From contig OZ287069.1 in assembly GCA_965645245.1 (NCBI GenBank), positions 620,001-684,000 of the forward strand: a DNA stretch of 64,000 nucleotides, written 5' to 3'. Source of the stretch: Massalongia carnosa (Eukaryota). The notes beneath the pieces were generated by a model. The model was not told where the DNA came from, made no database searches, and worked only from the letters and a program-made list of their open reading frames with translations. The translations under genes and the position numbers were made by a program. Shown piece by piece: positions 2,492 to 29,739 of this stretch. Within the stretch, counting starts at the first letter, position 1. Every line of letters begins with the position of its first letter.

Positions 2492-2911
2492 AACCAAGGA
2501 CGAATCTCACTGAGATTTGATGTTAGATCAGGTAAAAGGATATGGGCAAATGTCAAATGAAGTAAGAAGGTGAGTTTTGATAGGTTTGGGGTGGTTTTAA
2601 TAAAGATAGGGGGCTAAATCAAAGTTAGACACGGAAAATATCATTTGTAAATGGTTGTGGGAAATTATTGAGACCAGTTCGGACGCAATCACGTGTGTCG
2701 GTATCAAATCTCAATGCGGGTCTCATCTTTCTGGAAGATGAAAGGTGTTTGTTGTTTTCAACCCGCACTATCTTCAACCTGATCCAGTAACAAGAAAGTT
2801 AATCCAAATACGAAATCCAGACCTAGGGTATCTTGTTGACGAAATCGTGTCTCCCAAACGCCTTATAATTATCCTCCGTTGCAAACGCTTCGCTAATATA
2901 CTTGAAACAGC

Positions 2912-9606: not shown

Positions 9607-10363
9607 TATTTTGGTAGGTGAAATGCTATGCAAGATTCTCTAGCAATAGGTGTGAGATGAAAGGTGGATGAGCCGCTCGAAAGCCAACGCCGAGTAGTGA
9701 CTGATGCAGGTGAAGGTTGGTAGAGAGTAAGAAGAAAGACTGGATCAATGTCAAGGTATGATTTTGGAAGAGGAGGAGATGAACGAGGAAAGAGAAAGGT
9801 GGGAAGATGTAGATGAAAGTGCAAGTATGGTATGCTGTGGTTCCTGCTGGTATAATAGGAGAGGTCTATCCACCACAATAGGTGAGGGTTCCACTCCACA
9901 ATAGTAGCGTTTCATGTGTTCACCCAAGTTGAATGTCTTGACAGCTACGCCGACAATATCAAACGGAACGATACGAGCCTATTCATTCAAGTCCCACACA
10001 GGTGATCACAATGGGTTATGCTCACTGTCGCTAGAGTGAATGGAAATTTAGGTACAGCAGCCCCAGAACTTCTTTCCGCAAGCTTATACGCATAGATTTA
10101 AACATCGAGTCTAGAAAGTCAGCGAATTCAAAATAGTGGTACTAATCCCAAAAACCTGGACGCAAGAAAATATCGCAGAATGACAAGGGAATGTGAAGCC
10201 ACCACAAATTCTTAATATTGTTCTTTCGGAAGCCTGAGTCGCGTTCCCCACCTTGAGACATTCTGAACGGAGTGTCGTAGGGAAAAGGTTTCCTTGAAGA
10301 CACACGAACTTGTGAAGGCTTTATCCTGTATTTACATTATTTGGATGATCTGAACAAATGGTT

Positions 10364-10403
10364 GAAGTGAGGAAGTGAGGAAGTGAGGAGGTGAGGAAGT
10401 GAG
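10364..10403. repeat. 8-bp tandem repeat (GAAGTGAG)x5, one variant unit
   Basis: Read directly in the STE2/PKS divergent intergenic region. Confidence 0.9.
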
Positions 10404-11528
10404 CTCGAGCTAGTGGTTAACTCCCGTGACTCCCAACGCTAAACTCGTCACGTTTAAGTTAACCCTTTTCTCTTTTAGACTAGTACTAAATTCACGTGAT
10501 ATCCTCTTGTCCCTTCAACATTTCATCCTATCTTGCTACTCAAACGATTATAATGAACTACTCCCAGGATTAATCCGGACCCGAATATCCGTTATGTTCC
10601 CCACTTTTCGTGACACCGCTGAAGCTGACTCGCGGCGATGAAGTTTATGTTCGGCGATTAAGGACATTTGACCGCCGAGAGCAACCCCGAAACTCGCTGG
10701 CAAAACATATCACACCCTCACGAGTTACGGAGATTAGGCGTTGTCTATTACACTATCCATACTCGCCGAACGTCCTCGCACCGAGTAATATTGTAACGTT
10801 GACGCCTCTATCAAGTGTTGCCCGACCGACGTCAATCAAAACTCCGAAGGGACTTCTCGTCGTTAGCGTACGAGACCTGTCGGTCGAGAGAAGCCCGAGG
10901 ATGAAATGTTGCAGGAAGCCTTCCCTCAAGTGGGATGAATATCCACTCTTAGGCCTGACATAACCGACTTAAGAGCAGACCCCACGGGGAATTTGGATCT
11001 CAATCGATGTCGGTGTCGTCAGCATGCTGCGAAAGCTCTGCAAGATGCTTTGATTCAATATGTCATTCTTTCCGTTCAATCTGTGTCGTCAAATCATAGC
11101 CCATTGTGTAGGACAGTGTTTCCCTAAACCCCTTGCCAAGGCATTTAGTGATGTGACAATGAGTTTTAGTGGTTTGTAGGATCAACCGAGAGCAAGAGAG
11201 ATTTCATTGTATGAATGAGTCCAGCTTCTCAATGCTTGACGTCATGTAAGATGAGATGAGCCTCTGGACCATCTTCGTAAGGGGCGAAAGATTGCTACGC
11301 GGGTGCTCCAGCATATGATCGAGATCGCTTCTACATAGTATGTACGCGCAGAGGAGCAAAACGACGCTAGAAAATTGATATAGAAATCCGCTCCGCCTGC
11401 TTAGACTTTTTGTCATTTGGTATTGTCTTTCAGTCTACATGTAATATCGCAATAGATTTCTTAATAATATTGGCAACTCACCCACTGAAAGAGTGGGGCT
11501 CTTTATACTCCTTTTAAGTACTACTACC

Positions 11529-14500
11529 ATGGAGGAATCAACTCGCATACTTCTCTTTGGTGACCAGACGGGCGACTATCGAACGATATTCCGTCAAGTC
11601 TTGCACATCAAAGACAACACCGTCTTGACGTCTTTTTTCGAAAAGGCCTATGCCGCTCTTCGAGACGAAGTAGCACACCAACCTCGGGCTGTGAGAGATC
11701 AGATCTCAGGGTTTACTAGCATTGCAGATCTGGTGGCCCGATACTCTGACTCTACCGGCGCCAAATCTAATCCCGTTGAGAGCGCGCTAACCTGTATCTC
11801 TCAAATTGCTTGCTTTATATGGTGAGAACTGCTGCTGAGCTCCCTAGGTGTGAAGGCAATGATCTTAACCTCCTTACAGTCATCAAGCAAGCTTATCGGA
11901 AGAATACCCATCACCATCTGACACACGTATCATTGGCTCATGCACAGGTCTCTTAGCAGCCGCAGCTGTGAGCTCGTCTCAAAGCGTCATTGAACTTCTC
12001 CCTGCAGCCATTGAAGCCATAACGATCGCTTTTCGTATAGGAGTGCTGGTAACAGAAGTCCGCAATCAGATAGAACAGGACGGTGATGATTCGCCCAGTT
12101 GGTCAGCTGTTGTGTCTGGATTTCAAGAGTCCGACGCGCTCAAAACACTCGAGAAATTTCATAATGAGAAGGTAAAATCAAAACAATCCTAGCGGGCTTC
12201 AATCTCCTGACAAAGACTTTTTTAGTGTATACCAACATCTAGCCAAGCATACATAAGTGCCATCAGTCCAAGCGCCCTGACTATCAGTGGGCCACATCTG
12301 GTGTTGGACCAGTTGTTCGAGTCCGCGGAGCTCAACACGGTCAAGGCGATTAGACTACCCATCTATGGCCCTTTTCATGCGGCCCATCTTTACAATGAGG
12401 ATATTATACAAGCACTTCTGCGTCCAGAAATTGACATATTAAACTCCCAAGTTCCTAGAATTCCTGTACTGTCAACAGAAACGGGAGACTGGATTGCTAC
12501 GGCCACTTTTGGTCAAATGTTGGATGTGATAATTCACGACATACTTGTACGCACTCTGCATTGGGACACAGTACTAGAAAGCGTCACTTCAGCTATAAAA
12601 GAGTCTGGTCGTTCACGATGTATTATTCTTCCATTAGGGCCTTCAAACGCAGGCTCGAGTTTAGTGTCAACCCTTAGACAGAACAAAGATATCGAAACCG
12701 TGCTGGATGATCGATTCATTGCGGATATCAAAGATCTTGGGCCAGATGAATCGTCCGGTAGATCGTCGCATTCGAAGATTGCCATTTGTGGCCTGTCGGG
12801 AAGATTTCCCGATGCAGCGAATCATGAAGCATTTTGGAATTTGCTAGAGAGAGGGTTGGATCTTCATCGGGAGGTTCCTAAGGATCGATTTGACATAGCA
12901 ACTCATGTGGATGCCGATGGCAAAAGAACTAACACCAGCCACACCCCTTTCGGATGTTTTATTGAAAATCCTGGGTTATTTGACCCAAAATTCTTTGGTA
13001 TATCGCCACGAGAAGCAATGCAAACGGATCCTATGCAACGGCTTGCGTTGGTCACGGCGTACGAAGCTCTCGAGATGTCAGGATATGTTCCTAACAGGAC
13101 TCCCTCCACACAGCTCGACCGAATCGGGACGTTTTATGGGCAAACAAGTGATGACTGGAGAGAAATCCAAGCCGCTCAAAAAGTCGATACTTATTTTATT
13201 CCTGGAGGAGTACGTGCTTTTGGACCTGGACGTATTAATTATCATTTCAAGTTCAGTGGGCCAAGTTTCAATATCGATACCGCATGCTCCTCCAGCCTAG
13301 CAGCCATTCAACTAGCATGCACTTCATTGTGGGCTAACGATTGTGATACTGCTGTTGCAGGTGGTATGAATGTCCTGACAAACCCAGGTAAGGCGCTACC
13401 TAACTTGGGCAAGCATCTTGCCTTCCATTTGCTTACTTTTACTCTCATGTTCAAATTGTTCCATAATTTATGCTGCGTCTAACACTTCACAGATATTTTC
13501 AGCGGCCTTAGTCGTGGACAATTCTTGTCAAAAAAGGGACCATGTCAAACATTCGATGATGAAGCTGATGGATATTGTAGAGCCGATGGGGTGGGAACTG
13601 TCATACTCAAAAGATTAGAAGATGCTCAGGCCGACAAAGATCCAATTCTTGCAGTAATTTTAGGCGCTGCTACTAATCATTCTGCTGAAGCCGTTTCAAT
13701 CACTCATCCTCATGCGGGTGCACAGGAGTTTCTCTACAAGAAGGTTTTGAATGCAGCTGGTGTGGATCCTCATGATGTCAGTTATGTCGAAATGCATGGG
13801 ACTGGAACTCAGGCAGGTGACGCTACAGAAATGCGTTCCGTAACTAATGCCTTTGCACCTTCAAATCGCCGAAGACGTGCGGATCAGAAACTATATCTTG
13901 GAGCTGTTAAGGCAAATGCCGGACATGGCGAAGCCGCGTCCGGAATAACATCTTTGATCAAAATACTCATGATGCTAGAAAAGAACATGATACCTCCACA
14001 CTGCGGAATAAAAGGAAAAATAAATCGCACCTTTCCCAAGGACCTCGAAGAACGAAATGTACATATTGCTTTCGAGCCTACTCCGTGGCTGCGACCAAAA
14101 GGGCAAGAGCGCCGCCTTTTCCTCAACAATTTCAGTGCCGCTGGTGGCAACACTGCCTTGTTGTTGGAAGATGGTCCTCCAGCTGTACTCAAGGAGACGA
14201 CTGATCCTCGCTCACATCATATCGTTGCGGTTTCGGCGAAGAGCAAGCTTTCGCTAAAGGAGAATATTCAGGCTTTGATCGCAATTCTGGATGGGTCTGC
14301 GGTGGATCTACCTAGCTTGTCATACACTGTAAGATTCACCTAAATTTTGCTGTCTGATAGACTATATTAACATGCTGTAGACTACCGCACGACGCATCCA
14401 GCACAACTACCGGGTAGCTGTTGCAGGCCCTGACATTAGAAAGATAAAAGAATCTTTATCTTCATCCGTCGACCAAGAAGTCTCCCAAGTTCTTCCCGGA

Positions 14501-17500
14501 AAACAAACAATCATTTTTGTCTTTACCGGTCAAGGTTCTCAGTATATCACCATGGGAAGGCAGCTTTTTGAGACAAGCCCGCCATTCCAGACAAACGTAA
14601 AGCAATATGATAGCATCTGTACTAGCCAAGGATTTCCGTCGTTTCAGCCTTTGATCGATGGTAGCGTCACCGACATCCAGACTCTTAGTCCAGTAATTGT
14701 ACAGCTGGGCGCAGTTTGTGTGCAGATCGCACTTCTCAAGCTTCTGAGCTCCTGGGGAGTGAATCCAACTGCGGTGGTCGGCCACAGTCTAGGCGAGTAC
14801 GGTGCACTTTGTGCCGCCGGCGTTTTGTCTATCAGCGACACCATATCCTTGGTGGGAGAACGAGCGAGGCTACTTGAAGCCAAATGCCACGCGGGAAGCC
14901 ATTGTATGCTTGCTGTGAAAGGATCTGTGGCTTCAATCGGCCATCTGCTAGACGGACAGACCTTTGAGATTGCCTGTATCAACGCACCTGAAGAGACGGT
15001 CATCAGCGGTACCAATATCAACATCGACTTATTGTCTGAGGAGCTCAAGGAGAGAGGTTTCAAATATACCAAGTTAGCCGTTCCATATGCCTATCACTCT
15101 ACCCAGGTAGAACCTATTTTGGAAGAATTTGAGGCGTTGGCAAAAGGGGTTACATTCAAGCCTCCTACAATTCCTGTTATCTCGCCACTTAAAAACAAAG
15201 TGATCACAGATGGGGGTGTTTTTGATCCATTCTATCTGCGCCGTCATTGCCGTGAAACCGTTAATTTCCTCGGCGGCATGGAGGCTGCGAAACACTCTGG
15301 TGTTGTAGCCGAGAACACGCTCTGGGTTGAGATTGGATGTCATCCCATATGCTTGAATATGATCAAGGCAACGTTTGGACCTATTAAGGCAACTCCTACT
15401 CTTCGCCGCAATGAGGACAACTGGAAAGTTCTTACAAGTAGTTTATGCGCACTGCACGTGGCAGGGGTGAACGTTGACTGGAGTGAATATCATCGGAATT
15501 ACGACTCAAGCCATGAGCTGCTTCGGCTCCCAACCTACCGATGGGATAATAAAAATTACTGGATTGACTATACTAACGACTGGTGCCTTGCTAAAGGTGA
15601 CGCTAAGAGAGCCGCGGAGATACCACTACAAAAGTCCAAATTATCCAATACGTCGGTGCATCGAATCGTGGACGAGGATTTCACCGACGAGGGTGCTTCG
15701 ATCGTTGTAGAATCGGATCTTGCTGAGCCTGAGTTGAAGGAAGTGATCAAAGGCCACGAAGTGAATGGTTTTGGGCTTTGCCCACCCGTAAGTTTCGACT
15801 CCCTTTCATCACTCTCGTGGCTTATTTTACGATTGATTCTTTAAAAAAATACGGCGCATTAACTATTTCACTGCTAACTGAGCATTAGTCGCTCTATGCT
15901 GAGATGGCTTTGACGACCGCCGAGTACATTTACAAGCAGTGGAAGCATGATGTCGATCGTGTGGATATGAATGTCTGCAATATGAAAGTTGAAAAACCTC
16001 TCATCGCAGAGGATAAAGAGCATCAGCCTTTGCACGTGGCTGGGAAAGCAGATTTTTTGACCGCGAAAGTTAACTTTACTTATTATAGCGTCAATGACGA
16101 AGGCAAGAAGACTATCACCCATGCCACATGCTCTGTTAAATATGAAGATGCCAAATCTTGGCTGGCAGGGTGGGAGCGAAGCCAGCATTTGGTTATTTCT
16201 CGGGTCGAAAGCCTCCTGAGTGGAGTGCAAAATGGCGGCAATCATCAGATCAAGCGCAGTATGGCTTATAAGCTTTTTGGAGGCCTAATTCATTACGGCC
16301 CGAAATATCGCGGCATGGAAGAAGTGATTCTCAACGATCCCGGCCTTGAAGCAACATCTACCGTTGCCTTCGCACCAGGTGCGAACGGGACCAATTTTTA
16401 CATCAGCCCGTACGTCATTGATAGCGTGGCACATTTATCGGGCTTCATCATGCTTGCAAACGAGTCGGCGGATCCTTCGAAGAACGTCTATGTTAGTCAT
16501 GGATGGGAGACATGCCGTTTCGCTCGCCCTTTTACCATGGAAAAGAAATATCGAGCCTACGTAAAGATGCAAGAGACTTCTGCAAAGATTGTGGTTGGAG
16601 ATGTATACGTTTTTGAGGAAAACACAATCATTGCACTTGTTGAGGGTCTTCAGGTATGGGGTTTCTTGTGCTATTTGCTGACTATCAATGACTAACTGCT
16701 GTCGAAGTTTCATTTACTCCCCCGGCAACTTATGGATTCAATTCTATCTGCTGCCGGTGGAAAAACTAAAGCGGGTGTATCCTATAAACCTAGCCCTGCC
16801 ACTAAATCTAGTCCAGCCTCACAAGCAAAAACGGGTTCAAAAGCAACATCCGCGGCCAAAGTCACCCCGCTCCCGAAGGTAAAATCTTCTAAAGCTGCTC
16901 CTCTTTTTAAATTTTCAAGCGGAGTAACTACCAAGGCATTGGGGATTTGTGCAGAGGAGATTGGGATCTCGGTGTCCGACCTATCGGATCAAAGCTCCTT
17001 CGCCGAGTTGGGTGTTGACTCACTACTTTCGCTTACGGTATCTGGCAAATTCCGTGAACTTCTCGATGTCGAGATTCCTTCCTCCTTGTTTGTGGACTAT
17101 CCAACGGTGAAAGACTTGAAACAATACCTCACACAATTTGATCCAGAGGATTCCAGCCAGGAAAGACCCCTCGATGCGAGTAGAGCAAGTTCTGCAGAAC
17201 TATCTACAGAGCTTACTTCCGGAGCTACAACTCCTGCCTTGGAGACTGGTTCGCAGTCTTCTATAAGTTCTGACGAAGATTCCGTGGGGCCTAAGAGCAA
17301 CGGTGGACAACTAGCAACAACGATCAAATCCACGGTAGCGGACGAATTAGGGGTACCAGCTGGGGAGATTGGTGCAGCAACAGATCTTGCAGAACTGGGT
17401 ATGGACTCATTGATGTCTCTATCAGTGTTGGGCAAGCTGCGAGAAGAAACAGGAGAGGACCTTCCTTCGGATTTCTTCACAGAACACACAACTCTTGGCG

Positions 17501-18451
17501 ACATTGAGAAGAGCTTCCAAAGCGATTCTCAACCGCAAAGTCCGACAAGGCAGGAAGATGAGAGCAACCGCGAAAGTAAGCCCGCTAACAAGTCTCCTCC
17601 TGCAACGTCAATCCTAATGCAAGGAAATCCGAAGACTGCCTCTAGGAATCTCTTCCTCTTCCCCGACGGTTCTGGCTCTGCAACGTAAGCCGTTTCTTGG
17701 TCGGTATGCTAACATAACGCTGACATCCCATCTGCGAAGGTCTTATGCTCAAATCCCACCCATTTCTGATGATCTTGCTGTCTACGGCCTAAATTGCCCG
17801 TTCATCAAGAGTCCAGAGGACTACACGATTGGAATCCCCGGCGTTTCGGCGCTCTACCTAGCCGAAGTGCGTCGCCGCCAGCCACACGGCCCGTATATAT
17901 TTGGGGGTTGGTCTGCCGGTGGAGTCTGTGCGTATGAAGTCGCCCTGCAAGCGCTATCTCAAGGGGAGACGGTCGATCGCCTGATCCTTCTCGACGCCCC
18001 GTGTCCCATTCGCCTCGACCCACTTCCCTCGCGCCTACACCATTTCTTTGATTCAATCGGACTGCTTGGCCCGGAAGGAAACCCAAACGGTCCTCCCGGC
18101 TGGCTGCTCCCCCACTTCGATCGTTCCATCGCTAACCTGAGCGCCTACCAACCCACCATCATGGATCCGGCCAAAGCGCCCCGCACCTACGCCATGTGGG
18201 CCTGCGACGGCGTGTGCAAGTTTCCCGAAGATTCGCGACCCGACCCTGAGCAGGAATGCAAGAGCGAGTCGCAGAGCATGAAGTGGCTATTGGACAACCG
18301 CACGGATCTCCAGTTCAACGGATGGGATCGGTTGATCCCGGCGGATCGGTTCGTCGGCTTGGAGAGCGTGCCCGACACCAACCATTTCACCATCATGCGC
18401 AAGCCAGCGACCAGGGAGGTGGGGGCGTTTATCAAGCGGGCTTTGGAGTAA
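11529..18451 (+). CDS. Non-reducing iterative type I polyketide synthase SAT-KS-AT-PT-ACP-ACP-TE, about 2147 aa, melanin/T4HN-type motifs
   Basis: Introns at 11822-11879, 12172-12225, 13388-13492, 14329-14380, 15788-15888, 16654-16707 and 17685-17739 give a continuous 6444-nt frame. Motifs: SAT LLFGDQT and [49 protein letters not shown]...DSVAHLSG; ACPs LGVDSL and LGMDSL; TE GWSAGG, LDAPCP, NHFTIM. Confidence 0.97.
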
Positions 18452-18999
18452 TCTAGGGGGCCAGGCTGTAGGGATTTCTTAGTTTATATAGGCGACCAAC
18501 GCATTTCGACTAGTATGTTTATGCATCTACCTAGCTCATTCCCCGCCTCGGACGATGTGGTGGAACGAAGTATGAAGCATCCCCAACGTCTCATTTCTTT
18601 CCTTGCTTTTGATGATTCGTCCATCATCCCAATACTCGCCCACCGTAGGTACTAAATGAGTTCCGCGACTTTATCGCTCTGTGCCAACCCCAACTCCCTC
18701 CAAATAACAAGAGCGGTACAAAATTGAATTAAGAGGCCAGCAGAAGAGAATTGTACTCTCGAATCAGCTAGACTTCGATCTATTCGCATAAAGGGTATAC
18801 CGAGTCCGTAACGCCGTGCGATGTAGTTCTAGCCAAACACCCCTTACTGTCCGCTTACCTCTGCTATCGCCAAACCTGTCCTAATAACCATAAAGATCGA
18901 CCATACCCCACCGCTCCAAAGCTTTCCCAATCTCAACGACAACATCCCGAAGCAAGCGAATGTTATGAGAAATCTAAAAACACTCTTCATGACGGCGGA

Positions 19000-20790
19000 T
19001 CAATGGCCATGGCTGCCGTCGCTCAGTTCACGCCGCTGTGACTCTTTCGTTGTCGCAATCTTTTTTGGTTGTGTTTTTGAACGTTTAGCCGGAGGTATGT
19101 AGTCCAGTATGAGCTCATCCGTTGAAGTCTCAAAGTCTTGAAGGATAACAGTTGCGTTTAGGCCTTGATTCGGCGAGGGTTGAGACTCTGGGCTCAAAGA
19201 ATCGATTGTGGAGAGCTCATCTTGGGAAGCCTCACTTGTGAAGCCTGGAACCGGGCCAAAATTTGCATCAACAGTTGGCGTTCCTACCTGATTATCATGT
19301 ACCCTCTGGTTCGCATTTTTGATTGCCTCCTCCCTCTGCTCCTTTGCCCAGTCTCTCGCGTTCCTGAACGCACTAGCTCCTTGCCGAAATGTTTCGAGAT
19401 TGCCCTTCATGCCCCAGGCGTTGATCTGGGTCATATAATACTCAGGCCGACCTCCAGAATTAGTTGGCTGAGAGAGATGGCTGGTGTACAATATAAGCTG
19501 GCCACCATGATAAGTTGATGTAATAGTATAAGCATTGTTGTCATGGAAAGATCCGTCTTGCCCATATAACTGCAGATTCTGCATGGCCTCTCGTTCCTAA
19601 TGCACCGTCGTAGCTGGCCTGTCGTTCAGCCATCGCTAATGATCCATCTGGCCCCTTCGCCGCTAAGAAAAAATTTGGTGCAATGGGAAGATCATCCTGT
19701 GTCGAAGGAATAATACGGTCACTAAGCTCACTACGGACTTTTCGGTCGAGTTGTTCTGGACGTGCGCCATAGTAGAGGTCCGGATTACCAGGCACAAGTG
19801 TGCCGTCCGTCAGATGATCGAGGTTTGTGAACGGGATTCCTCCTGAGACGCATTTAGCGTCCCCGACCTCACCTTCAATGATTGGAATCACTGATGTTGT
19901 TATCTGTTTCTCTTTAAAGGCATGTGCATTCAATCGTTTAAATTTTCTGAAGTCCGCCTCAGAAAATTGCGATGGTGATAGAGAGGCTCGAGATTGTGCC
20001 AGTCTTTGATTGATCTCTTCCCAGTTATTCGGTTGTGGCGGAACCTGTCCACCAGGGTACTCGTATTCATCGGGGTAAACGCCACCATCAATGAGGTTCT
20101 GTTGAAAATTGCGGTCATAGGGACCCGTGCTCTTAGGAATCGTGGTATTCGTAGTGGGTGTCTTATTCGAGGTAGACATCGGATAACGTTTTCGACCCCG
20201 AGAACTGGGCTGGTTTAAGCTCATCCTGAGATCAAGAGAATATTTAGGGTTCAAACACTAGCGGGAGAGAGTGGTCAGGCTCTGGTAGCTAACAGATAAT
20301 TGGCAATACATTACCCCCTTAAGTCCGAGAGATCTGGACCGCCGTGTCTGGCAAATAGCTTTATGTTCTTTGCACACTTTGACGCAGCATCATCGAAAAG
20401 TTCAGTGGCAAATTGAGTGGGTTGGCGATGTGAACAAGGCAAGCTTGAAGCAGGTTGGCTAGTCCTTCGACCTAATTCTCTCAAGGCGCGTTTGGTTAAC
20501 CAACCTTTCGATAAGTTGTCCCAAAATGCGGGCGGTGGTTGAGATCCGCTGGGACAACTGAGCTTCTGCTTTTTCGGCGGAGGCTGTGATGTTTGATTCA
20601 GTTGACGCGGACGCTGCTCCGAGAGTTTTCGCTTGCGGGGATTGGGAAGTTGTGGTCCGGACATATGACAATCATCGATCACAGGGTCGCCAGATTCTTC
20701 TAGGTATGAAGATGGAAGGACAGGTTGGATCATGAACAGGTGGGCCCCCATGAAGGTTGATGTTGCGAGCCATAAGCGATAGTATCCCAA
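19000..20790 (-). pseudogene. Disrupted fungal hypothetical gene, probable PD-(D/E)XK-like fold
   Basis: Three ORF pieces: PPAFWDNLS...ARHGGPDLSDLRG; NPDLYYGARPEQLD...APNFFLAAKGPDGS...RQASYDGALGTRG; MQNLQLYG...NAYTITSTYHGGQL...RQGASAFRNARDWAKEQR. An extra C near 19585 shifts the frame. The intron at about 20258-20314 does not splice in frame either. Confidence 0.7.
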
Positions 20791-21428
20791 AGGAGACTAG
20801 CCTATTTGTATATCTTTCGTATCCATCACTCAACCTTCCATTTCATGAAGAATATCAGATGGAGTAGCAGATGAACAAGTTGTGTCTAAAACAGGAATGC
20901 ATTTGTTATTCTATTCCGAACCGCCAAAGGTTAACTGACGTTTGATAGGCGAGTACGGAATACAAAGCCGTAATAGCACTGAATGCACCGCATTCGGGCC
21001 TTTTGAAGCAAAGCCCGAGCATGTTATCCGGATCGTTCGATGAAAGAAAGCGATCGACGATCCAAGTAATGTCACGGGGTCTGCTTTTTGCAGGGGGGGG
21101 CTCAACTATATAGAGAGCTTTGGGGGCGAGAAACGTGAGCTTGGGAGGAGGAAAGGGATTGGAGGGTGATTACGAGCATCGTTGTTAGCGTTAGTCGTCG
21201 GAGAAAGACAGAAAAAAACCACACTGGTGACCGACACAATGGTCGTTACACAACGCTAAGCCCTCCCTCCGCCCTCCCTCCCGCCCGCCCGTGTCCGATC
21301 TCCCGTCCCGCCATACCGCCATTCATTCATCTAGAACAAATCTTACAACCCTGACCTACCTCATGGAGATCAATTGACTATCGTCGTTACATCGCCCAGA
21401 CGCCCTTCATCCACCCTTTCCATCCCAC

Positions 21429-22709
21429 TCAATACGAATTCGCCTCGTACAGAGCGTGTATATCCCGCTGCAAGCTCTCCACGATATCCCGAAGCCGTCG
21501 ACGCAGGAACGTGACCAACTCGCCGTACACCCGCGCCTCATGCTTGACGGGGCCTGCGCAGAAGCGCACTTGGAACCTCCCTATCAGACCGTCCACCTTG
21601 CGCAGCTCGCTCAGGATCACTTGCAGCTTGATCTGCTCTTCCTCGGCACCTTCCAGCTTATAAGCTCCCAGCGTAATAGGGGTAGATAAGGGCGCCGCAA
21701 CAAAGACGTCCGTGGTGTTGGCATCAGTGGTGGCGGACTGAAGGGACGGGCGCCCGATGGACTGGTAGCGAGACAGGATTTTCGTCAACGCAACGGCGAG
21801 AGTCATGATGGAGGTCGAGTCTCGGGTGCAAGTGCAGGAAAGGATGGTGGCTATGGTGCAGACGGCGGATTTATTGGCCGCAAGAACTTTATCAAATGGA
21901 GTGTTGGACGACTGTTCATGCAGACTGCGCAGAACCGCGAATGCAGTCGAAGCACAGAAGCAGCTCTCTGGCAGCGATGTGTTGTTCGATGTGGCGAGCA
22001 AATCATGGATGGATGGAAAATAGAGCTGAGGGAAGTCGTCCTGAAGGGTCATGCCCTCGGTTGAAAACAAGGATGCCGGTTTTTGAAGAGAGGCGGACTC
22101 CCCTACTCTTTCCCAACCGGCTGATGACTTCTGGCTGGTAAGTGGGAAGTCAGGTATAGATTCAACCGGCGTTGGCAACGAATTGGACGGGGACGAAAAA
22201 TTCGAACCATGGCTTGAGTCGGTGACTTGGAATGGTCGTTGCTGTATCATTAATACCTCCTCTTCGAGATCAATCTCAGGCCGTCGTCTGGCAATTTCTA
22301 AGTCAAAATTCGCACTCCAGCTGTACAGTGAGGGGAGCCCTGAAACATCGCTGGTCGACGAAGGATCTGAGGTCTGAGCCGCAGTACCACCCTGGTACTT
22401 GGGGACTCCAGGCACCTGTTGATCTTCACGAATTCGTCTGGGTTTTCCCACTCTTTGAGATGGGCTGTACTTGCATAGCACACTGTGGTTGGAGCAACGA
22501 ACACATGTAGGCGTTTCCTTGGTGCATTTGACTTTTGACAGGTAGCAGCCGTCGCACGAGGCTCGCAGTCTCCGAGAGTCGGGCTTGGGCAACTGTGATG
22601 AAGCACTGTCCTGCGCCGGTGAATTTTCGTTGCTTCTTTTACACGAATTCTCAAACATGCTGAGGGCACTATCGCTGATGGCAGCCGTCCATGCAAGATT
22701 GGGAGGCAT
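21429..22709 (-). CDS. Zn(II)2Cys6 transcription factor, AflR/MdpE-like cluster regulator
   Basis: LRASCDGCYLSKVKCTKETPTCVRCSNHSVLCKYSPSQRVGKPR binuclear cluster. The C-terminal CxC...ILSCTC...ITLGAYKL...ILSELRKV region is typical of AflR-type regulators. Single 426-aa ORF. Confidence 0.9.
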   Translation of the reverse strand: MPPNLAWTAAISDSALSMFENSCKRSNENSPAQDSASSQLPKPDSRRLRASCDGCYLSKVKCTKETPTCVRCSNHSVLCKYSPSQRVGKPRRIREDQQVPGVPKYQGGTAAQTSDPSSTSDVSGLPSLYSWSANFDLEIARRRPEIDLEEEVLMIQQRPFQVTDSSHGSNFSSPSNSLPTPVESIPDFPLTSQKSSAGWERVGESASLQKPASLFSTEGMTLQDDFPQLYFPSIHDLLATSNNTSLPESCFCASTAFAVLRSLHEQSSNTPFDKVLAANKSAVCTIATILSCTCTRDSTSIMTLAVALTKILSRYQSIGRPSLQSATTDANTTDVFVAAPLSTPITLGAYKLEGAEEEQIKLQVILSELRKVDGLIGRFQVRFCAGPVKHEARVYGELVTFLRRRLRDIVESLQRDIHALYEANSY

Positions 22710-25228
22710 AAAGTCATTATGTGAGGGTTAAAGTCCTCTATGCAGCGTGCGTAGGCCGTGTTCCTTAGTATAAAGATCTTTGATAATCCTCGCTAAGCCT
22801 CATCAACACATTGGAGATTCAAGATTTGATGGTACGATGTTCAGAGGATTGGTTGGAACTGCAGCAAGAAATCATGGTGAACACAGGTGTCATTCGAACG
22901 GGTACCACCCGCCTCAGCCTTGGTTGTCATAAGTAGTAACTGCACGCGCTAGCCAATGCGTTGAATGATGCGGAAGATAAGAACGGAGTGGCATGCATGA
23001 GCTGTAGATTTTCTCGTATTGTCACAGGAATCAACAGGCTTGGGGAGGCTAATTGATGCATTGGCTTTTGCAATCAATAGCGGGCCTGGGGTTCCCCCAC
23101 ACCGTCATTCCTGATCTGACTTGGTAATAGTTTTGGATCATTCTTCAACGAAGCTGGGAGACGTGGAGGTCTAATAAATATCATTGGTAGGATTTGACTC
23201 GGAAAACTTGCTTGTTAGGTTTGTCATATGAGCCGTTTTACCCATTCAAGTAATCAGTCGAGCGAAGGGACAAGGGCCCATCTACTATAATATTAAGGTG
23301 CAACGCTCAACGTGGGTGCCTAATAAGAATACTGCGCATTTTTGTTTAGCCACAGCCTTACGCTATGCGTAGAGCAGTTTTCTCCCCCAAACTGGAAGAT
23401 CGTCGCCTCATGTGCGGCAGGACCCAAATGCGGAGGTGGGCCAAGTTGCCTAGGTACTAAAGGCTAACTGAAAGATCCCTTAGGTAATATTAGTAATATC
23501 ATTCCCCCTCAACTACCAGTGATACTACCTCCAATGAGGGATATGATAAAGAACGAGCAGAAACCGAGGAGGTCATCAATCTTGCGTGTAAATAGGAGGG
23601 TTAGTTTGGGGGAAAAACTCGATGATTTCAATAGTTCGTGCATCGGAGGAAAGTTTGCAATCCGTTGAATGTCCCGTCTACGACAAAGGTAGTCTTTTTG
23701 AGAAACAGGTACATTGGATGCTGTGGGCGCTCACAATAACAGACATCCCTCTCCCCAGAACTAATGTTAGGCGCTCTAGAAACGATTTCAGGCGGCCTAC
23801 TAGATTCGAAGGCGTGATGAACTGAAGGAAGAAGCCAAAGAATCCGTCAAAGTGGATGGGTTGACATGACATGAGCGCGGAAGGATTGCCCCCAACGGTA
23901 CATCTCCTGACGTACACTTAATCCCTTCCAGAGACATTGTTGCAGGACGTAACTCTTAACTTTTCTTATCTGTTTGAACTCTTCCTAGCTTGTATTTGAG
24001 TAACTATTGCTTATATGTCTTCTGCCAATAGCTAGCAGCCAGCCGACTCGACTCCCGAATCTAAATTAACCCTGAAGCAACAAAAGAGCAAAGCAGCTCG
24101 ACTTTATTATGAGAAGATTGGCTCCAACTCTCCGAGACAGACTTCCAGAAAGTCTTCGTAGGTAAATGCACACAAACCTAAATTTAGGCTCGTGATTCGC
24201 GAGGTGGTTGCTGTACCATTTCCTGCATGAAACACGTGGTTCAGTCATGCTTCGAAAATTGATGGAAGCGGGTTGACATTATGTAAATGCTGCAGGACAC
24301 ATAAACAGCGGTTTAGCAGGGATGGAAGAGGAAACTGATCAACACACTGCTTTGCTGGTGATCTTTCAGTATGTATATATACTTCCTCGGCTAAGAGAAA
24401 TGGTACAATGGCGAGCTTGGTAAACTAAAAGATGTTTCTTGGGTGCTGGGCTCGGTATACAATGGGATTAGTCGGGCTCGCATACATTCATATCCGGTTG
24501 GTTTGCAAGCGAGCTTTGTTATCGGTGGGAATTGGCTCCAAAGCCTAGGCTCGGTGACATCAGTCATGCAAGAGACTGAATATTCGGAACTCCGTACTCC
24601 ATAGAATGTAACGCTGGACTGCAGAAACAAGCCTACTCTTTTGCGCTTTTTACGCCTTTTACGCCTCTTAAGATTTTTACTGGACAGGCTCAAGTGACAG
24701 ACGAAAGGGCACAAAGGAAGGCACGTTGACAATGGTGGTTCAGTATTCCGCCAGCGGCGTTGTTGCACAAGACTTGATTGAGTGCGAGGTTGGTGTATAA
24801 GTTACGCCATTTTAGTCGTATCTTTTAAAATGATACCCTAGCGTCGGCTTTCCCAGTTCTCCATCGCCGAAGTCGAAGTGACGGATCATCAACATTTTCA
24901 GTCTCTTCATAGTATCTTTGATCGCCGTCTATCCACTTATCGCTTTTTATACCCGCCGACCCTAGCATACCGATATTTGAGCATGAGTGAGTTATGATGC
25001 CCGCACAGGCCCGATGTCATAGAATTGTTTGGACGCAGTTTACCCGCACATGTGATCGCCACGAGATCTCTCCATCCCGGAGGAGAGAATGCTAGCAAAA
25101 TATGCCGGAAGGGTTGCCTTCAAGTATTTTCAGCTACCTTTTTATGGAGCCTGCTTCGATATTATCTTCAAATGGATGGACTTCGTCGGTGATTAAGCTG
25201 AGGGCTTAGGTTCTTCTGAGCAGCCAAA

Positions 25229-27027
25229 ATGAGCTTTCTGCCGCCTCCTGGAGATGCGGCAACTCCTGACAGCTCTACCTGCACCAACGGCTCCGGAGAA
25301 TTTCGGGCAGAGGAAGGTTTCGAGCTGAGTGCGAAAAAGCAGCATGTTGGTAGCGCTACAAAGCCTCAACAAGTTCCTGATTTGGAGAAGGGAGAAACCC
25401 AGAGCGATGGAGCTGCGAACTTCGGGGTCATCGAGGACACAGCAAATCAGAAAGAGATGGATTGTTCTCTCATAAAATTCGGAGGACCTGACGATCCAGG
25501 CAATCCGATGAATTGGAGCAAGGGATACAAATGGACTATGACTGGTGTTCTTGCCGGGATGACCTTCGTCACAACCTTCACAAGCGCAATTTTCAGCACC
25601 GCGATCACTGGGACATCGAAGAAGTTTGAAGTTAGTACTGAAATCATGACGCTTGGGACTAGCCTCTTTCTCGTGGGGTTCACCTTTGGCCCCATCGTCT
25701 GGGGCCCCCTTTCGGAACTCTACGGCCGCCGTTTGCCTTTATTTATCGGCACCTTGGCAATGTGCTTGTTCCAAGTCGGTGTGGCAACTGCACGAAATGT
25801 TTACACCATCATGATCTGTCGATTCTTCGCCGGCCTATTTGGCTCAGCACCACTCGCAGTTGTAGGGGGCTCCCTAGCGGATTTTTGGGATCCTGTAGAA
25901 CGAGGGGTTACCGTTGGGATATATTCAATGTGTACATTTATAGGTCCTGTTGCAGCACCTATAATTGGAGGTTATGTTGCTGAAAGTTATCTTGGCTGGC
26001 GCTGGACAGAGTATATAGCTGTTATATTGGGTAATCGAGTGCGAACTCGTACATTTCTTCTCCGCTAATATTCTAATCTGATAGGGCTGTTCTTCTGGGC
26101 CATAGCGGTAGTGTTGCTGAAAGAGACCTATCATCCTGTGATACTCCAGAAACGAGCTAGAAAAATCCGCCTGGAAACACGGAACTGGGCGATTCATGCG
26201 GAAGCAGACGAGAAAACGATCACTCTGCACGTCATCCTGGATAGATATCTTACACGGCCTTACAGAATGCTCCGACGAGAGCCTATCTTGCTTTTGATCG
26301 CCTTGTCCGTATATTAATATCATAGCCATGCACCAAGTGCTAACCATCTGATATGCAGGTACGTCGGCCTTGTCTATGGAATACTCTACCTCTTCTTTAC
26401 CGCATTCCCCATCTCCTTCCAACAAAAACGCGGCTGGGGAGAAGTATATCTCCCACCTCCATCTTTCCATTAAACTTGCTCTTCATTCCCCATGCCTAAC
26501 ACATCGTTTAGGGCCACGGCGGACTCCCTTTCCTCTCCGTAACCATTGGCGTCATAATCGGGGGTCTCCTCAACGCTTACCACTCTCGTACCACCTTCGC
26601 CACCGCCATCGCTTCCTCAACCTCCACCCCGGAAACCCGTCTTCCCCCCATGATTCTCGGCGGCTTCTTACTTCCCCCTGGCCTCTTCTGGTGGGCCTGG
26701 GCCTCGCGTCTCGCGTCGCCCTGGCCGCAGATCATCGCGGGCGTCCCCATGGGCACGGGGATTCTCCTCATCCTCGTCAATGGGCTCAACTATATTGTCG
26801 ACGTGTACAAAGCCAACGCCAACAGCGCTATCGCCGCCAACACGGTTGTGCGAGCCCTTTTCGGGGCCGTGTTCCCGCTGTTTGCGGAGAGCATGTATGC
26901 GCGGTTGGGGGTGCCATGGGCGACTAGCCTATTGGGGTTTTTGACGCTGAGCATGCTACCGGTTCCGGTGCTGTTTTGGTGGTACGGCGCTACGGTTAGG
27001 AAGTGGAGCCGGTTCGTGCTGGAGTGA
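25229..27027 (+). CDS. MFS multidrug transporter, DHA1 family, 4 exons
   Basis: GPDDPGNPMNWS, GPIVWGPLSELYGRR, CRFFAGLFGS, GGSLADFW, WRWTEY, ETYHPVILQKRA, PETRLPPM, ANSAIAANTVVRALFGAVFPLF. Introns at about 26031-26084, 26305-26359 and 26444-26510. Confidence 0.95.
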
Positions 27028-27750
27028 ATTGCGATGTGTACGGTATTTGGCTGCATTCGTCAACCGCGTAGAGAGCAGTATCAGCACGAATTGGTCTTAG
27101 ACGCCATTGCTCTGTTCGTTCCCCCTAGAGATTTAGCTTTCGAACTGTGCTTCTCCCTCTTTGTATTGCGCCTAGGTAAGTACTACGTACGAACCCACGA
27201 TCCGAAAAGGCCTTCTTGTTTTGCCTCCTTGGTTTGCCTTCTCGCTTTGCCTATAGCCCTTTGTGCAGGTGGATACATAGGGGAACATACATTTCAAAGT
27301 AACAGATTCAACAATAAATAGACATCTTATTTTCTCATTTTGGTGACCTGCCTTGCCGCTGCAGCCGCGATATCTATATCGATATATATACGTGTTGCCA
27401 TTGTGTTTGCTAGGTGGAAAAGGGAGGGGTGGAAAGGATTAAGTTTGTGTAAGTAACTTAGTCTGGAGAAAAGAGCGAGCATTTCAAGTAAAGATGAAAA
27501 TCTGTTTTGTCTAGGACTGTATTGTAAAAAGGAATTTACGAGGGTTCTCTTTTCGGGATTTTTTTGCTTGTGGGTTTTAGGTGCCTGGCGCATACATATT
27601 CCATTTGACAGACTAGCAGAAAAGGATAAGTCATTTTCGCTGAACTTTACCCTAAATTAGGGTTATCTAAGTATCTCGTTAATTACCCAGCCCAACCCGC
27701 CCCGCCCCGCCCCCCGGAAAAGCCTCGTTAGCCGTTCCCCAAAAGGCTCA

Positions 27751-29739
27751 CTAAGCGCCTTTCCTCGGCGGCACAATCTTCCCATCCGCAGTCGTCCACC
27801 TCTCCCTTCTCAACCCTTTCCAAACGTCTCCAACCTTTAATCGAACCAGCTCCCCCGCCGCCCTCGCGTCTTCGGCCGAATCGTGCCCCCTCGCCACGGC
27901 CATCTGGATGTCGCGGTCCAAGTGACGCTTCATGAGGGCTTTAAGGCCGAAGCGTAGCGGTAGGCCGCGCGGGTGCGGGTATAGGAGGGCGGTGTCGACG
28001 ATGGAGGGGTGCATGACGCGGGTAGCGTTGAGATCGTTTTCTAGGGCGTGCCCGATTAGGGGGGTATTGGGGGCGAGATGGGTGAAGAGGAGGGCGCGGG
28101 CGTGGGAGGGGGATGGAACAAGCTGGAGGGCGGGCGCAGTGGTGGTGGTGGGAGGGGGGGTGGAGGATGTTATTAAAGTAGGATTCGTAGCTATTGGTGG
28201 TGAAGCGGCGCCAGAAGAGTCTGGGGTTGCGGTTACAAAATGGTGGGGCCAGACACCAGAGAAGCGAGAGTTGAGGTCGAGGATCTCGCCAAGAGGGCGA
28301 ACGAGGACGTCGAGGAGGGTGAAGCCCGAGGGCCAGGAGGTAGCAGTCAGCCGGATCAATTCCATGCCGTGGGTTGTGTAGCCCATTTCGCAATCAAAGC
28401 ACACAGCGGTGTTGGAAGGGAGGGAGAGGTTGGCTGGGGTTGCCATAAAAGGCATTACAAGCGCCAAACGTTTGGCCTCGGATATTTTGAATACGTGCGT
28501 ATCGCATGGTGTGCAGCCGGTGGATACGCCGACGGTTTCGTTGCAGCAGGCGTAGCAGGGTTCCTTGTGACTCTTGTCGCCTTTTTCTCCTACCGGCCGT
28601 CGGGGCTTGGCCGGGTGGTAGAGACATACACCACCGGTTGTCAAGGCTCCATCTTCAGCTCGTCGCCCAGGGAAGACCTGAAAGCGCGTGTTGCAGCGGT
28701 CGCACTGCTCCCAGCCTTGGGCTGCCTCGACTCCTTTTCGAGCTTGCTCTACTTCTTCATCACTAGGAGCGGTTGGAATATAACCATGTCTCACCAGTTG
28801 GTCCTGCTTAGCGAACAGACGAGGAAGAAGCGCAATTTCCTCACTTGACGACAGGCCAGTCTCTATAACTTTGGGAGCTGCACGAGGACTAGAGGGCGCT
28901 TTAATCGGCTTCTCTGACGCAATCTGCTTTAACCGCTCGCTCTTCCAGTCGCCGACTTTCATCTTCTTCAAGCCAAGTATGCGAAGTTTGACGATGTTTG
29001 AATATACTGATGGATTCTGCTTGGCAATCTTCTCCTCTTCATTTAGGACAGCTGTTACCAGTTCTTGCGTAGACATTTCCATTGCTGCTTTGTTAGGTTC
29101 ATCGGTAAGCTTTATTTCTTCGTTCAGTCGAGTCATATACTCGTGCATCATGGTAACCAACTTCATTCTGGTGGCATGTGGCGCTGGGGGATTAGGTAAT
29201 AACCTTGGATTTAGAGACTCGACAACGGTCTTCTTTGCTAGTGGTGGCTTCACATCGTGCTTTGTCGGCAAGGTTAGCTTGGCATCGTGGTCCACTCCTA
29301 TTTGCAAGGCTGCACGACTGTCGACTATTGTATTTGCACCTTGTAGCGGGGGAGGAGAAATATCTCTCAAAATCGTACCAGGTAGTATCTTTCCAGATGC
29401 TTCTGCCGGTCGAACTCCAGCAAAAAATTCCCCAGCCGCTGAAGAAGCGTTCGACGCAGTAGATCGGGCTATTCTCCTGCTCTTAGCTGTAGCGATATAA
29501 TCGCCTTCATCCAGGCCATCAGTTCGCTGCCTTTTCCGCGATCTGTCAAGAAGGTTGTTTGCATCTTCGTTATCTTTGTGTTCTGCTTCACCTGGCAAAC
29601 GCCGTGAAAGCGCTGACTGCCTAACGTCATGCTTTTTTTCATTTACTATTTTCTGATGTGCAAATATGCAATTTGGCAGAGGGCATTGGAGTGAATCTGG
29701 ACATTCAATTTCTTTGAACAATCCAACAGAAGAGAACAT
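27751..29739 (-). CDS. REX3: RNA exonuclease 3 (DEDDh 3'-5' exonuclease)
   Basis: N-terminal MFSSVGLFKEIECP...C...CIFAH; CDRCNTRF...CLYHP...CC...GC...H; exonuclease motifs FDCEMG, GHALENDL, HDSAEDA. Confidence 0.92.
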   Translation of the reverse strand: MFSSVGLFKEIECPDSLQCPLPNCIFAHQKIVNEKKHDVRQSALSRRLPGEAEHKDNEDANNLLDRSRKRQRTDGLDEGDYIATAKSRRIARSTASNASSAAGEFFAGVRPAEASGKILPGTILRDISPPPLQGANTIVDSRAALQIGVDHDAKLTLPTKHDVKPPLAKKTVVESLNPRLLPNPPAPHATRMKLVTMMHEYMTRLNEEIKLTDEPNKAAMEMSTQELVTAVLNEEEKIAKQNPSVYSNIVKLRILGLKKMKVGDWKSERLKQIASEKPIKAPSSPRAAPKVIETGLSSSEEIALLPRLFAKQDQLVRHGYIPTAPSDEEVEQARKGVEAAQGWEQCDRCNTRFQVFPGRRAEDGALTTGGVCLYHPAKPRRPVGEKGDKSHKEPCYACCNETVGVSTGCTPCDTHVFKISEAKRLALVMPFMATPANLSLPSNTAVCFDCEMGYTTHGMELIRLTATSWPSGFTLLDVLVRPLGEILDLNSRFSGVWPHHFVTATPDSSGAASPPIATNPTLITSSTPPPTTTTAPALQLVPSPSHARALLFTHLAPNTPLIGHALENDLNATRVMHPSIVDTALLYPHPRGLPLRFGLKALMKRHLDRDIQMAVARGHDSAEDARAAGELVRLKVGDVWKGLRRERWTTADGKIVPPRKGA

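What the first reader, a model, noticed from the sequence alone, without database searches (positions are those of the whole stretch)
11529..27027. Orphan melanin-type NR-PKS with an AflR-like regulator and exporter but no tailoring enzymes
Seen: an intact SAT-KS-AT-PT-ACP-ACP-TE PKS. Its KS ([15 protein letters not shown]) and TE ([18 protein letters not shown]) resemble tetrahydroxynaphthalene/melanin synthases more than wA/Alb1-type enzymes. Its intact neighbours are an AflR-type Zn2Cys6 factor and a DHA1 MFS pump, bounded by STE2 and REX3. Known: DHN-melanin PKSs usually work with THN reductase and scytalone dehydratase under Cmr1/Pig1-type regulators, while AflR-plus-MFS is the layout of exported-metabolite clusters. 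Inference: this is a melanin-clade paralogue repurposed to export a near-unmodified aromatic polyketide (naphthol/naphthoquinone/pyrone-like), or a cluster that lost its tailoring genes.
Basis: partly seen in the sequence, partly recalled or inferred. Interest (0 to 1): 0.75.

Follow-up and report, generated by a model that had tools for sequence, protein, structure and literature searches.

The report
Lichen pigment-type polyketide gene trio
A lichen fungus carries a spare copy of its melanin-type pigment enzyme, packaged with a regulator and an export pump; a similar trio has been noted in other lichens, its product is unknown, and its altered ring-forming pocket hints that it may not make melanin.

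Summary
The three genes are real and intact: a 2,147-aa SAT-KS-AT-PT-ACP-ACP-TE PKS, an AflR-type factor and a DHA1-like MFS. The host is a lichen fungus. Its DHN-melanin cluster (PKS15-like PKS, AflR-type factor, reductase, the only scytalone dehydratase found, laccase) lies on another contig, so this PKS is a paralogue. But AflR-type factors flank three of the genome's four aromatic PKSs, the melanin one included, so 'AflR means export' fails. The PKS belongs to a well-supported lichen lineage (Psora, Letrouitia, Bacidia), sister to T4HN synthases plus the cristazarin PKS22 family. The trio is conserved in Bacidia gigantensis and matches a PKS+AflR+MFS 'putative melanin' cluster published for three Ramalinaceae, so it is neither an orphan nor a fresh remnant. 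Not in that paper's text: the lineage replaces a PT pocket asparagine (PksA N1554) with Leu/Val/Ile, and some members lack the TE. Best guess: an AT4HN/T4HN-type naphthol, autoxidised and exported (0.5). Rivals: melanin precursor supplied in trans, or an isocoumarin/pyrone. No expression or chemistry data. New member of a known kind; interest 0.4.

The parts
11529..18451 (+). Non-reducing PKS, SAT-KS-AT-PT-ACP-ACP-TE, 2,147 aa; exons 11529-11821, 11880-12171, 12226-13387, 13493-14328, 14381-15787, 15889-16653, 16708-17684, 17740-18451. Member of a lichen lineage sister to T4HN synthases plus PKS22/Crz7
   Evidence: Gene model; Pfam; trees; 19 coding variants in another thallus are 7 non-synonymous, 12 synonymous, no stop
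15889..16653 (+). PT-domain exon with the lineage signature: Leu1519 at the position of PksA Asn1554; Asp1508 kept; Ser at the N1568 position as in T4HN-side enzymes
   Evidence: Alignment to PksA PT 3HRR; residue counts; role of N1554 from PMC5386248
17618..18451 (+). TE/Claisen-cyclase domain, Ser-Asp-His intact; absent from some orthologues
   Evidence: orthologues ending just after ACP2: P0013, P0003, P0339
19000..20796 (-).
   Evidence: (feature score 0.89, a lead only); run X4 lacks the extra base at 19585 but carries an insertion at 20223-20230 with inverted ends
21429..22709 (-). Intronless Zn2Cys6 factor with AflR domain, 426 aa from the first Met, convergent with the PKS; homologue of cristazarin Crz6
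   Evidence: Pfam; 79 homologues; tree; Crz6 sequence and orientation read
25229..27027 (+). DHA1-like MFS transporter, 540 aa; exons 25229-26030, 26085-26304, 26359-26443, 26512-27027; divergent from the factor across 2.5 kb
   Evidence: groups with Bacidia gigantensis KAG8527339.1 (support 0.924), two accessions from the Bacidia PKS KAG8527337.1
8446..9603 (-). STE2 pheromone receptor, left boundary; shares a 1.9 kb divergent intergenic region with the PKS
   Evidence: Pfam STE2 337 bits
27751..29820 (-). DEDDh RNA exonuclease (REX3-like), right boundary
   Evidence: No Pfam hit; PDB hits to ISG20L2, ISG20, SDN1

Best explanation
A conserved lichen three-gene unit built on an old PKS-AflR-type-factor pair. 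Shown: the PKS is intact, is a paralogue of the genome's DHN synthase and belongs to its own lichen lineage; factor and pump travel with it. Inferred: the factor switches on PKS and pump; the PKS builds an acetyl-primed hexaketide, the PT closes the first ring C2-C7 and the TE closes the second by C10-C1 Claisen condensation, releasing AT4HN or T4HN; with no reductase or dehydratase in the unit the naphthol autoxidises to a flaviolin-type hydroxynaphthoquinone, which the DHA1 pump exports as an extracellular pigment or defence compound and for self-protection.
For: Separate complete DHN cluster on contig C4: PKS, AflR-type factor, hydroxynaphthalene reductase, the only scytalone dehydratase found (2 exon matches, one gene), laccase. 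Lineage support: KS+AT 1.0 (115 sequences), KS 99.5, PT 100, concatenated 100/1; sister to T4HN synthases plus PKS22 at 0.982 and 98.1/1. PT carries Pro at PksA 1354, which PMC5386248 ties to C2-C7 closure; group II TEs close C10-C1 (PMC5591372). PKS-factor adjacency in Psora testacea (004613/004614) and Letrouitia subvulpina (005952/005953); PKS and MFS two accessions apart on one Bacidia gigantensis contig; same trio in print. The related Crz6/Crz7 pair, in the same convergent layout, is tied by expression to a naphthazarin pigment. pN/pS 0.18 and no coding indel in the three genes in run X4.
Against: No product or expression data. The PT pocket differs from all its relatives at N1554 and some orthologues lack the TE, which fits a changed product. 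MFS linkage is shown for one other genome by my data; the best Psora MFS hits lie on other contigs. The four annotated genomes with the closest factor (Pseudocyphellaria aurata, Lobaria immixta, Peltigera leucophlebia, Mycoblastus sanguinarius) gave no PKS of this lineage among the 120 listed hits. No strict AflR site in either intergenic region and no excess of shared words between them. Autoxidation of T4HN to flaviolin is recalled, not from a call.
Confidence: 0.5

Rival explanations
1. Reprogrammed synthase: the altered PT pocket and a dispensable TE shift the product from a naphthalene to a lactone (hexa- or pentaketide isocoumarin, or a pyrone) that is exported unmodified, as with terrein-type TerA.
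For: PksA N1554, one of six pocket residues validated by mutation (PMC5386248), is Leu/Val in 7 of 7 lineage members with a residue there and Asn in 90 of 93 other PKSs; among 150 further PT hits the 7 closest all have Leu/Ile while 128 have Asn. Ten more PT columns are lineage-specific. Three orthologues end just after ACP2 and the three published Ramalinaceae members lack a TE, so Claisen release is not needed in part of the lineage. That TE-less Colletotrichum Pks1 releases isocoumarins is recalled; the search for it listed 5 papers, none read.
Against: The window enzyme keeps the full PT dyad and a complete TE triad, as do Psora (2) and Letrouitia. TE absence could partly be gene-calling error. 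No structure was modelled.
Confidence: 0.25
2. Second, tissue-specific melanin synthase: it makes T4HN/AT4HN in one organ or stage and the C4 reductase, dehydratase and laccase (and the Ayg1-like hydrolase on C8) finish DHN melanin in trans, as BcPKS12 and BcPKS13 do in Botrytis.
For: All downstream enzymes are in the genome. Botrytis uses two PKSs for sclerotia and conidia (PMC11657710). The published Ramalinaceae cluster is called putative melanin. The C4 melanin cluster uses the same family of factor.
Against: The genome already holds a PKS15-like synthase inside the DHN cluster and a YWA1-side PKS with an Ayg1-like gene 29 kb away; a dedicated efflux pump and a changed PT pocket are not needed for this role.
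Confidence: 0.17
3. Decaying or silent remnant of a larger, cristazarin-like cluster that lost its tailoring genes.
For: The related PKS22 core carries seven more genes. A broken passenger gene has landed inside the unit. Close factor orthologues in four annotated genomes have no matching PKS among the listed hits.
Against: All three genes are intact in two thalli, pN/pS 0.18; the compact layout is shared with Bacidia; intergenic regions hold no recognisable relic and are single-copy.
Confidence: 0.08

Closest known systems
Ramalinaceae PKS+AflR+MFS1 'putative melanin' cluster (bacgig_10, bacrub_6, tondis_774; PMC11353741, section 3.5 read)
   Same: Melanin-clade PKS with AflR and MFS genes; my Bacidia gigantensis hits (TE-less PKS KAG8527337.1 in the window lineage, MFS KAG8527339.1 in the window MFS group) fit its description. 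The match is by species, architecture and neighbours, not by identifier.
   Different: Those PKSs are described without a TE; the window enzyme has an intact TE. The paper gives no product; the passages read do not mention the PT change. Its supplements could not be read.
Cristazarin cluster, Cladonia PKS22/Crz7 with Crz6 (PMC10289310; results, discussion and supplement rows read)
   Same: Same domain order; neighbouring branch of group II; homologous Zn2Cys6 factor in the same convergent layout; melanin-clade paralogue linked to a non-melanin naphthoquinone pigment.
   Different: Not the orthologue: by-eye KS comparison puts Crz7 with the Teloschistales clade (P0016, P0032), 74% KS identity to the window versus 79-89% within its own lineage. 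Crz7 keeps the PT Asn and has seven more co-expressed genes; no MFS is listed.
Lichen PKS15 / group II-a T4HN melanin synthases (Colletotrichum Pks1, BcPKS12, Alternaria PksA)
   Same: Domain order, KS motif, C2-C7-type PT, Ser at the N1568 position.
   Different: The PKS15-like copy of this genome is on C4 with reductase, dehydratase and laccase; only 72% KS and 45% PT identity to the window enzyme.
Aspergillus terreus TerA / Cladonia PKS14 (group II-b)
   Same: Melanin-clade PKS reassigned to a non-melanin product (6,7-dihydroxymellein/terrein in the table read); regulator plus MFS layout of the terrein cluster is recalled.
   Different: KS motifs differ by eye; TerA itself was not in my tree; the terrein cluster has tailoring enzymes (recalled).
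wA/Alb1/PksP (group III, YWA1)
   Different: Different KS motif and branch; this genome's YWA1-side PKS is on C8.

Membership tests
Group II (THN-type) non-reducing PKS | SAT-KS-AT-PT-ACP-ACP-TE with intact catalytic residues | tested here: met
Group II (THN-type) non-reducing PKS | Branches with T4HN synthases rather than wA/Alb1 or PksA | tested here: met
   0.982 (KS+AT), 98.8 (KS), 98.1/1 (concatenated); PT alone only 58.2. References were named database proteins used as proxies, tied to characterised enzymes by eye
Group II (THN-type) non-reducing PKS | Conserved PT pocket incl. the N1554 position | tested here: not met
   Leu1519; Asn in 90 of 93 other PKSs. Other pocket markers (H1345, D1543, Pro at 1354) are met
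Group II (THN-type) non-reducing PKS | Releases T4HN or AT4HN | not testable with these tools
   Needs expression and LC-MS
DHN-melanin cluster (lichen PKS15 family) | Orthologue of PKS15 clustered with T4HN reductase and scytalone dehydratase | tested here: not met
   Those genes are with the C4 PKS; none in the window
Cristazarin cluster (PKS22 family) | PKS22 orthologue with O-methyltransferases, reductases and FAD oxidoreductase | tested here: not met
   Separate clade; no such genes between STE2 and the exonuclease
Cristazarin cluster (PKS22 family) | Convergent Crz6-type factor next to the PKS | tested here: met
   a broken passenger gene intervenes
Ramalinaceae PKS+AflR+MFS cluster | Orthologous PKS with AflR and MFS neighbours | tested here: met
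   the Bacidia factor itself was not among my 79 factor hits and the middle accession was not seen
Ramalinaceae PKS+AflR+MFS cluster | No TE domain | tested here: not met
   Window TE intact
AflR regulon | TCGSWNNSCGR sites in target promoters (consensus recalled) | tested here: not met
   0 strict sites in both intergenic regions; 17 in 70 kb of the C16 control, 7 in 50 kb on C8. The factor may bind another site
Co-regulated cluster | PKS, factor and pump co-expressed | not testable with these tools
   No RNA holder listed

The most novel reading that the evidence does not exclude
A lichen-specific branch of melanin synthases was reprogrammed by a PT-pocket change, and gain or loss of its TE toggles the product between a naphthalene and an isocoumarin/pyrone; with its own AflR-type factor and pump it forms a minimal three-gene pathway for an unassigned lichen pigment or signal shared across lichen orders.
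Probability: 0.25. Interest if true: 0.62.

Novelty: new member of a known kind. Interest (0 to 1): 0.4.

Why it matters
Few lichen metabolites are tied to genes, and many melanin-like PKS copies in lichens are labelled 'melanin' by similarity alone. This unit is small, intact, needs no tailoring enzymes and has natural TE-bearing and TE-less versions, so one expression experiment would assign a product to a whole lichen PKS lineage and test what PT residue N1554 does in a C2-C7 enzyme. It also shows that AflR-type factors, not only Cmr1/Pig1, accompany lichen melanin clusters, so regulator type should not be used to call such clusters non-melanin.

Tried and rejected
Expression: no RNA holder listed; no conclusion drawn. 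JGI metagenome scan with the factor alignment gave 7 loci, none with this unit. Earlier-findings look-ups returned nothing. Shared promoter words: 9-mers 42 vs 37.3 shuffled, 10-mers 13 vs 9.3, 11-mers 1 vs 2.5: no signal. Repeats in 9600-27800: nothing beyond chance-like pairs and a GAAGTGAG run at 10364. A bacterial promoter scan is not applicable to a fungus and was ignored. Intergenic relics of tailoring genes: both regions single-copy, only short unrecognisable frames read by eye. Identity with PKS22, PKS13, PKS14, PKS15 or group XI: rejected by by-eye KS comparison with the supplement rows shown (3 rows each for PKS22, PKS13, PKS14, PKS15; 2 for Lobaria group XI; cells cut at 400 letters); the KS word IQAAQ occurs 0 times in that table, but it is an imperfect marker, present in 4 lineage hits and in Xylona. 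Support values printed are displaced by re-rooting; only the split-based values are used. A full ultrafast-bootstrap run timed out; SH-aLRT and aBayes were used instead. Atlas search of the PT exon returned only generic PS-DH clusters. Holes in runs X5 and X8 were not interpreted. No structure or complex was predicted because the PT is split by introns and a model would not settle the product. Papers searched by terms only and not bearing on the lineage: PMC9146135, PMC13062703, PMC7643366, PMC9135731, PMC12387558 (passages); PMC9239057 (first two of seven parts).
Full report
Observation. The PKS at 11529-18451 (+) splices through 7 GT-AG introns to 2,147 aa without a stop. Pfam finds SAT, KS, AT, PT, two ACPs and TE, and the catalytic motifs of every domain are present. 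The factor at 21429-22709 (-) has Zn2Cys6 and AflR domains; the MFS at 25229-27027 (+) splices to 540 aa. STE2 and a DEDDh exonuclease flank them. Two corrections: a DUF7924-like gene at 19000-20796 (-) sits between PKS and factor, frameshifted near 19585, with at least 6 paralogues elsewhere in the genome; and the quoted TE motifs are shared with Alb1-side Penicillium enzymes, so only the KS motif is informative.

Host. The best named hits of PKS and factor are Lecanoromycetes, one run holding the stretch is a lichen metagenome, and the factor groups with Lobaria, Pseudocyphellaria and Peltigera proteins (0.917). The host is a lichen-forming fungus, probably Peltigerales (inference).

Is it the melanin PKS? 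No. A KS search of the own genome gave 14 matches among 15 candidates scored, of which four loci are close aromatic PKSs: the window, C8, C16 and C4 (a lower bound). C4 carries PKS, AflR-type factor, hydroxynaphthalene reductase, the only scytalone dehydratase found and a laccase; by eye its KS matches Cladonia PKS15, the main lichen DHN family (PMC13062703, passage). C8 is on the YWA1/Alb1 side of the tree with an AflR-type factor 4 kb away and an Ayg1-like hydrolase 29 kb away. C16 is a PksA-like enzyme in an aflatoxin-type cluster. So the window PKS is a paralogue, but AflR-type factors lie next to three of the four PKSs, the DHN one included; regulator type does not mark export.

Phylogeny. 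I aligned the window protein, the three own paralogues and 116 of the 120 listed hits (those over 1,000 aa). The window enzyme forms a clade of 8 with Psora testacea, P. crenata, Letrouitia subvulpina, Bacidia gigantensis and three unnamed proteins: 1.0 on KS+AT (115 sequences), 99.5 on KS (43), 100 on PT (38), 100/1 concatenated. Its sister is a clade holding the T4HN-type enzymes (own C4, Dothideomycete and Leotiomycete proteins) and a large lichen clade that by eye is PKS22/Crz7; support 0.982, 98.8 and 98.1/1, but 58.2 on PT alone. Characterised enzymes could not be loaded; named database proteins stood in for them. KS identity is 79-89% within the lineage and 72-77% to T4HN-side enzymes.

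Synteny. Of 19 named factor hits among 79, 8 are consecutive with a PKS hit by locus tag or accession: 2 with lineage members (Psora testacea, Letrouitia subvulpina), 5 with PKS22-type enzymes, 1 with an outgroup PKS. The factor tree separates these groups as the PKS tree does, and Crz6 and Crz7 have the window's convergent layout: an old PKS-factor pair. In Bacidia gigantensis the lineage PKS (KAG8527337.1) and a member of the window's MFS group (KAG8527339.1; 0.924) are two accessions apart on one contig. PMC11353741 section 3.5 (read) describes a putative-melanin clade in B. gigantensis, B. rubella and Toniniopsis dissimilis whose clusters all hold MFS1 and AflR genes and whose PKSs lack a TE; the Bacidia protein I found ends after ACP2. 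I take this as the same unit, matched by description and not by identifier. Against tight coupling: the best Psora MFS hits are on other contigs; the Bacidia factor was not among my hits; and four annotated genomes with close factor orthologues gave no lineage PKS among the 120 listed of 3,422 hits, which may mean PKS loss or split gene models.

Maintenance. Run X4, another thallus about 0.4% diverged, covers the unit in two contigs. Its 19 listed coding variants in the PKS are 7 non-synonymous and 12 synonymous, pN/pS 0.18, no stop (40 of 88 variant rows were shown, and at most 4 unseen ones fall in the PKS-bearing contig). None of 10 listed indels hits a coding exon of the three genes. The DUF7924-like gene is damaged differently in X4: the extra base is absent but an element with inverted ends and an 8-base overlap is inserted at 20223-20230. 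The passenger decays; the trio does not.

Product clues. The PT keeps His1320/Asp1508 and has Pro at PksA 1354, a C2-C7 marker in PMC5386248 (passages). Group II TEs close C10-C1 (PMC5591372, passages). The default product is therefore AT4HN or T4HN. But the position of PksA Asn1554, one of six pocket residues validated by mutation, is Leu/Val in 7 of 7 lineage members with a residue there and Asn in 90 of 93 others; in an unindexed search of 1.84 billion representatives the 7 closest PT hits all had Leu/Ile while 128 of the 150 listed had Asn. The TE is present in the window, both Psora, Letrouitia and P0338, and absent from P0013, P0003 and P0339, which end just after ACP2. Both facts leave room for a lactone product.

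Regulation. No strict AflR-type site (consensus recalled) lies in either intergenic region, against 17 in 70 kb at C16 and 7 in 50 kb at C8, and the two regions share no more words than shuffles. Co-regulation is thus not shown.

Verdict. Most likely a maintained three-gene unit making a barely modified naphthol that autoxidises and is pumped out (0.5); rivals are a reprogrammed isocoumarin/pyrone synthase (0.25), a second melanin synthase working in trans as in Botrytis (0.17; PMC11657710, passage) and a remnant (0.08). The layout is in print as a putative melanin cluster; I found no product assignment in nine literature searches, which cover open-access papers only, and the supplements of the key paper could not be read. 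It is a new member of a known kind, TE-bearing and from another lichen lineage, with a testable PT signature. Interest 0.4.

Noticed in passing
G000:C16:1169000-1229000 (L020-L022, L038-L041): Aflatoxin/sterigmatocystin-type cluster in this lichen fungus: PksA-like PKS (2,110 bits to PDB 8cg4 versus 1,023 to CTB1), AflR, four P450 frames, SDRs, anthrone oxygenase, GMC oxidoreductase, EthD, NmrA-like, peroxidase; 17 strict AflR-type sites in 70 kb; interrupted by a chromodomain retrotransposon and a DDE-like element.
   Followed up: partly
G000:C8:2002000-2038000 (L017-L019, L058): YWA1-side PKS with AflR-type factor, PEP-mutase/ICL-family gene, AMP-binding enzyme, TPP enzyme and an Ayg1-like hydrolase; AflR-type sites before several of them. 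The three enzyme families resemble oxalate formation and breakdown genes (recalled), an odd company for a pigment PKS.
   Followed up: partly
G000:C4:1827000-1850000 (L024, L025, L036): Complete DHN-melanin cluster with an AflR-domain Zn2Cys6 factor rather than a Cmr1/Pig1-type factor, plus laccase and a SnoaL-like gene. A Cmr1 homologue elsewhere in the genome was not searched for.
   Followed up: partly
window 20223-20230: In run X4 an insertion with inverted ends and an 8-base overlap, like a hAT-type DNA transposon (family name recalled), interrupts the DUF7924-like gene.
   Followed up: no
window 9604-11528: The PKS shares a 1.9 kb divergent intergenic region with the STE2 pheromone receptor; whether this is conserved or affects expression is unknown.
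   Followed up: no
window 49503-51205 and 53937-55344: Two frameshifted Tc1/mariner-like DDE transposase genes flank a SAP/Tho1 gene.
   Followed up: no
window 1479-2506: Two overlapping frames of a no-Pfam gene resembling dispersed fungal nuclease-like families, apparently frameshifted or intron-split.
   Followed up: no
P0121-P0154, P0324: About 35 close orthologues (43-61%) of the factor, the named ones from Peltigerales, while no PKS of the lineage was seen in those annotated genomes: possible retention of the factor after PKS loss.
   Followed up: partly
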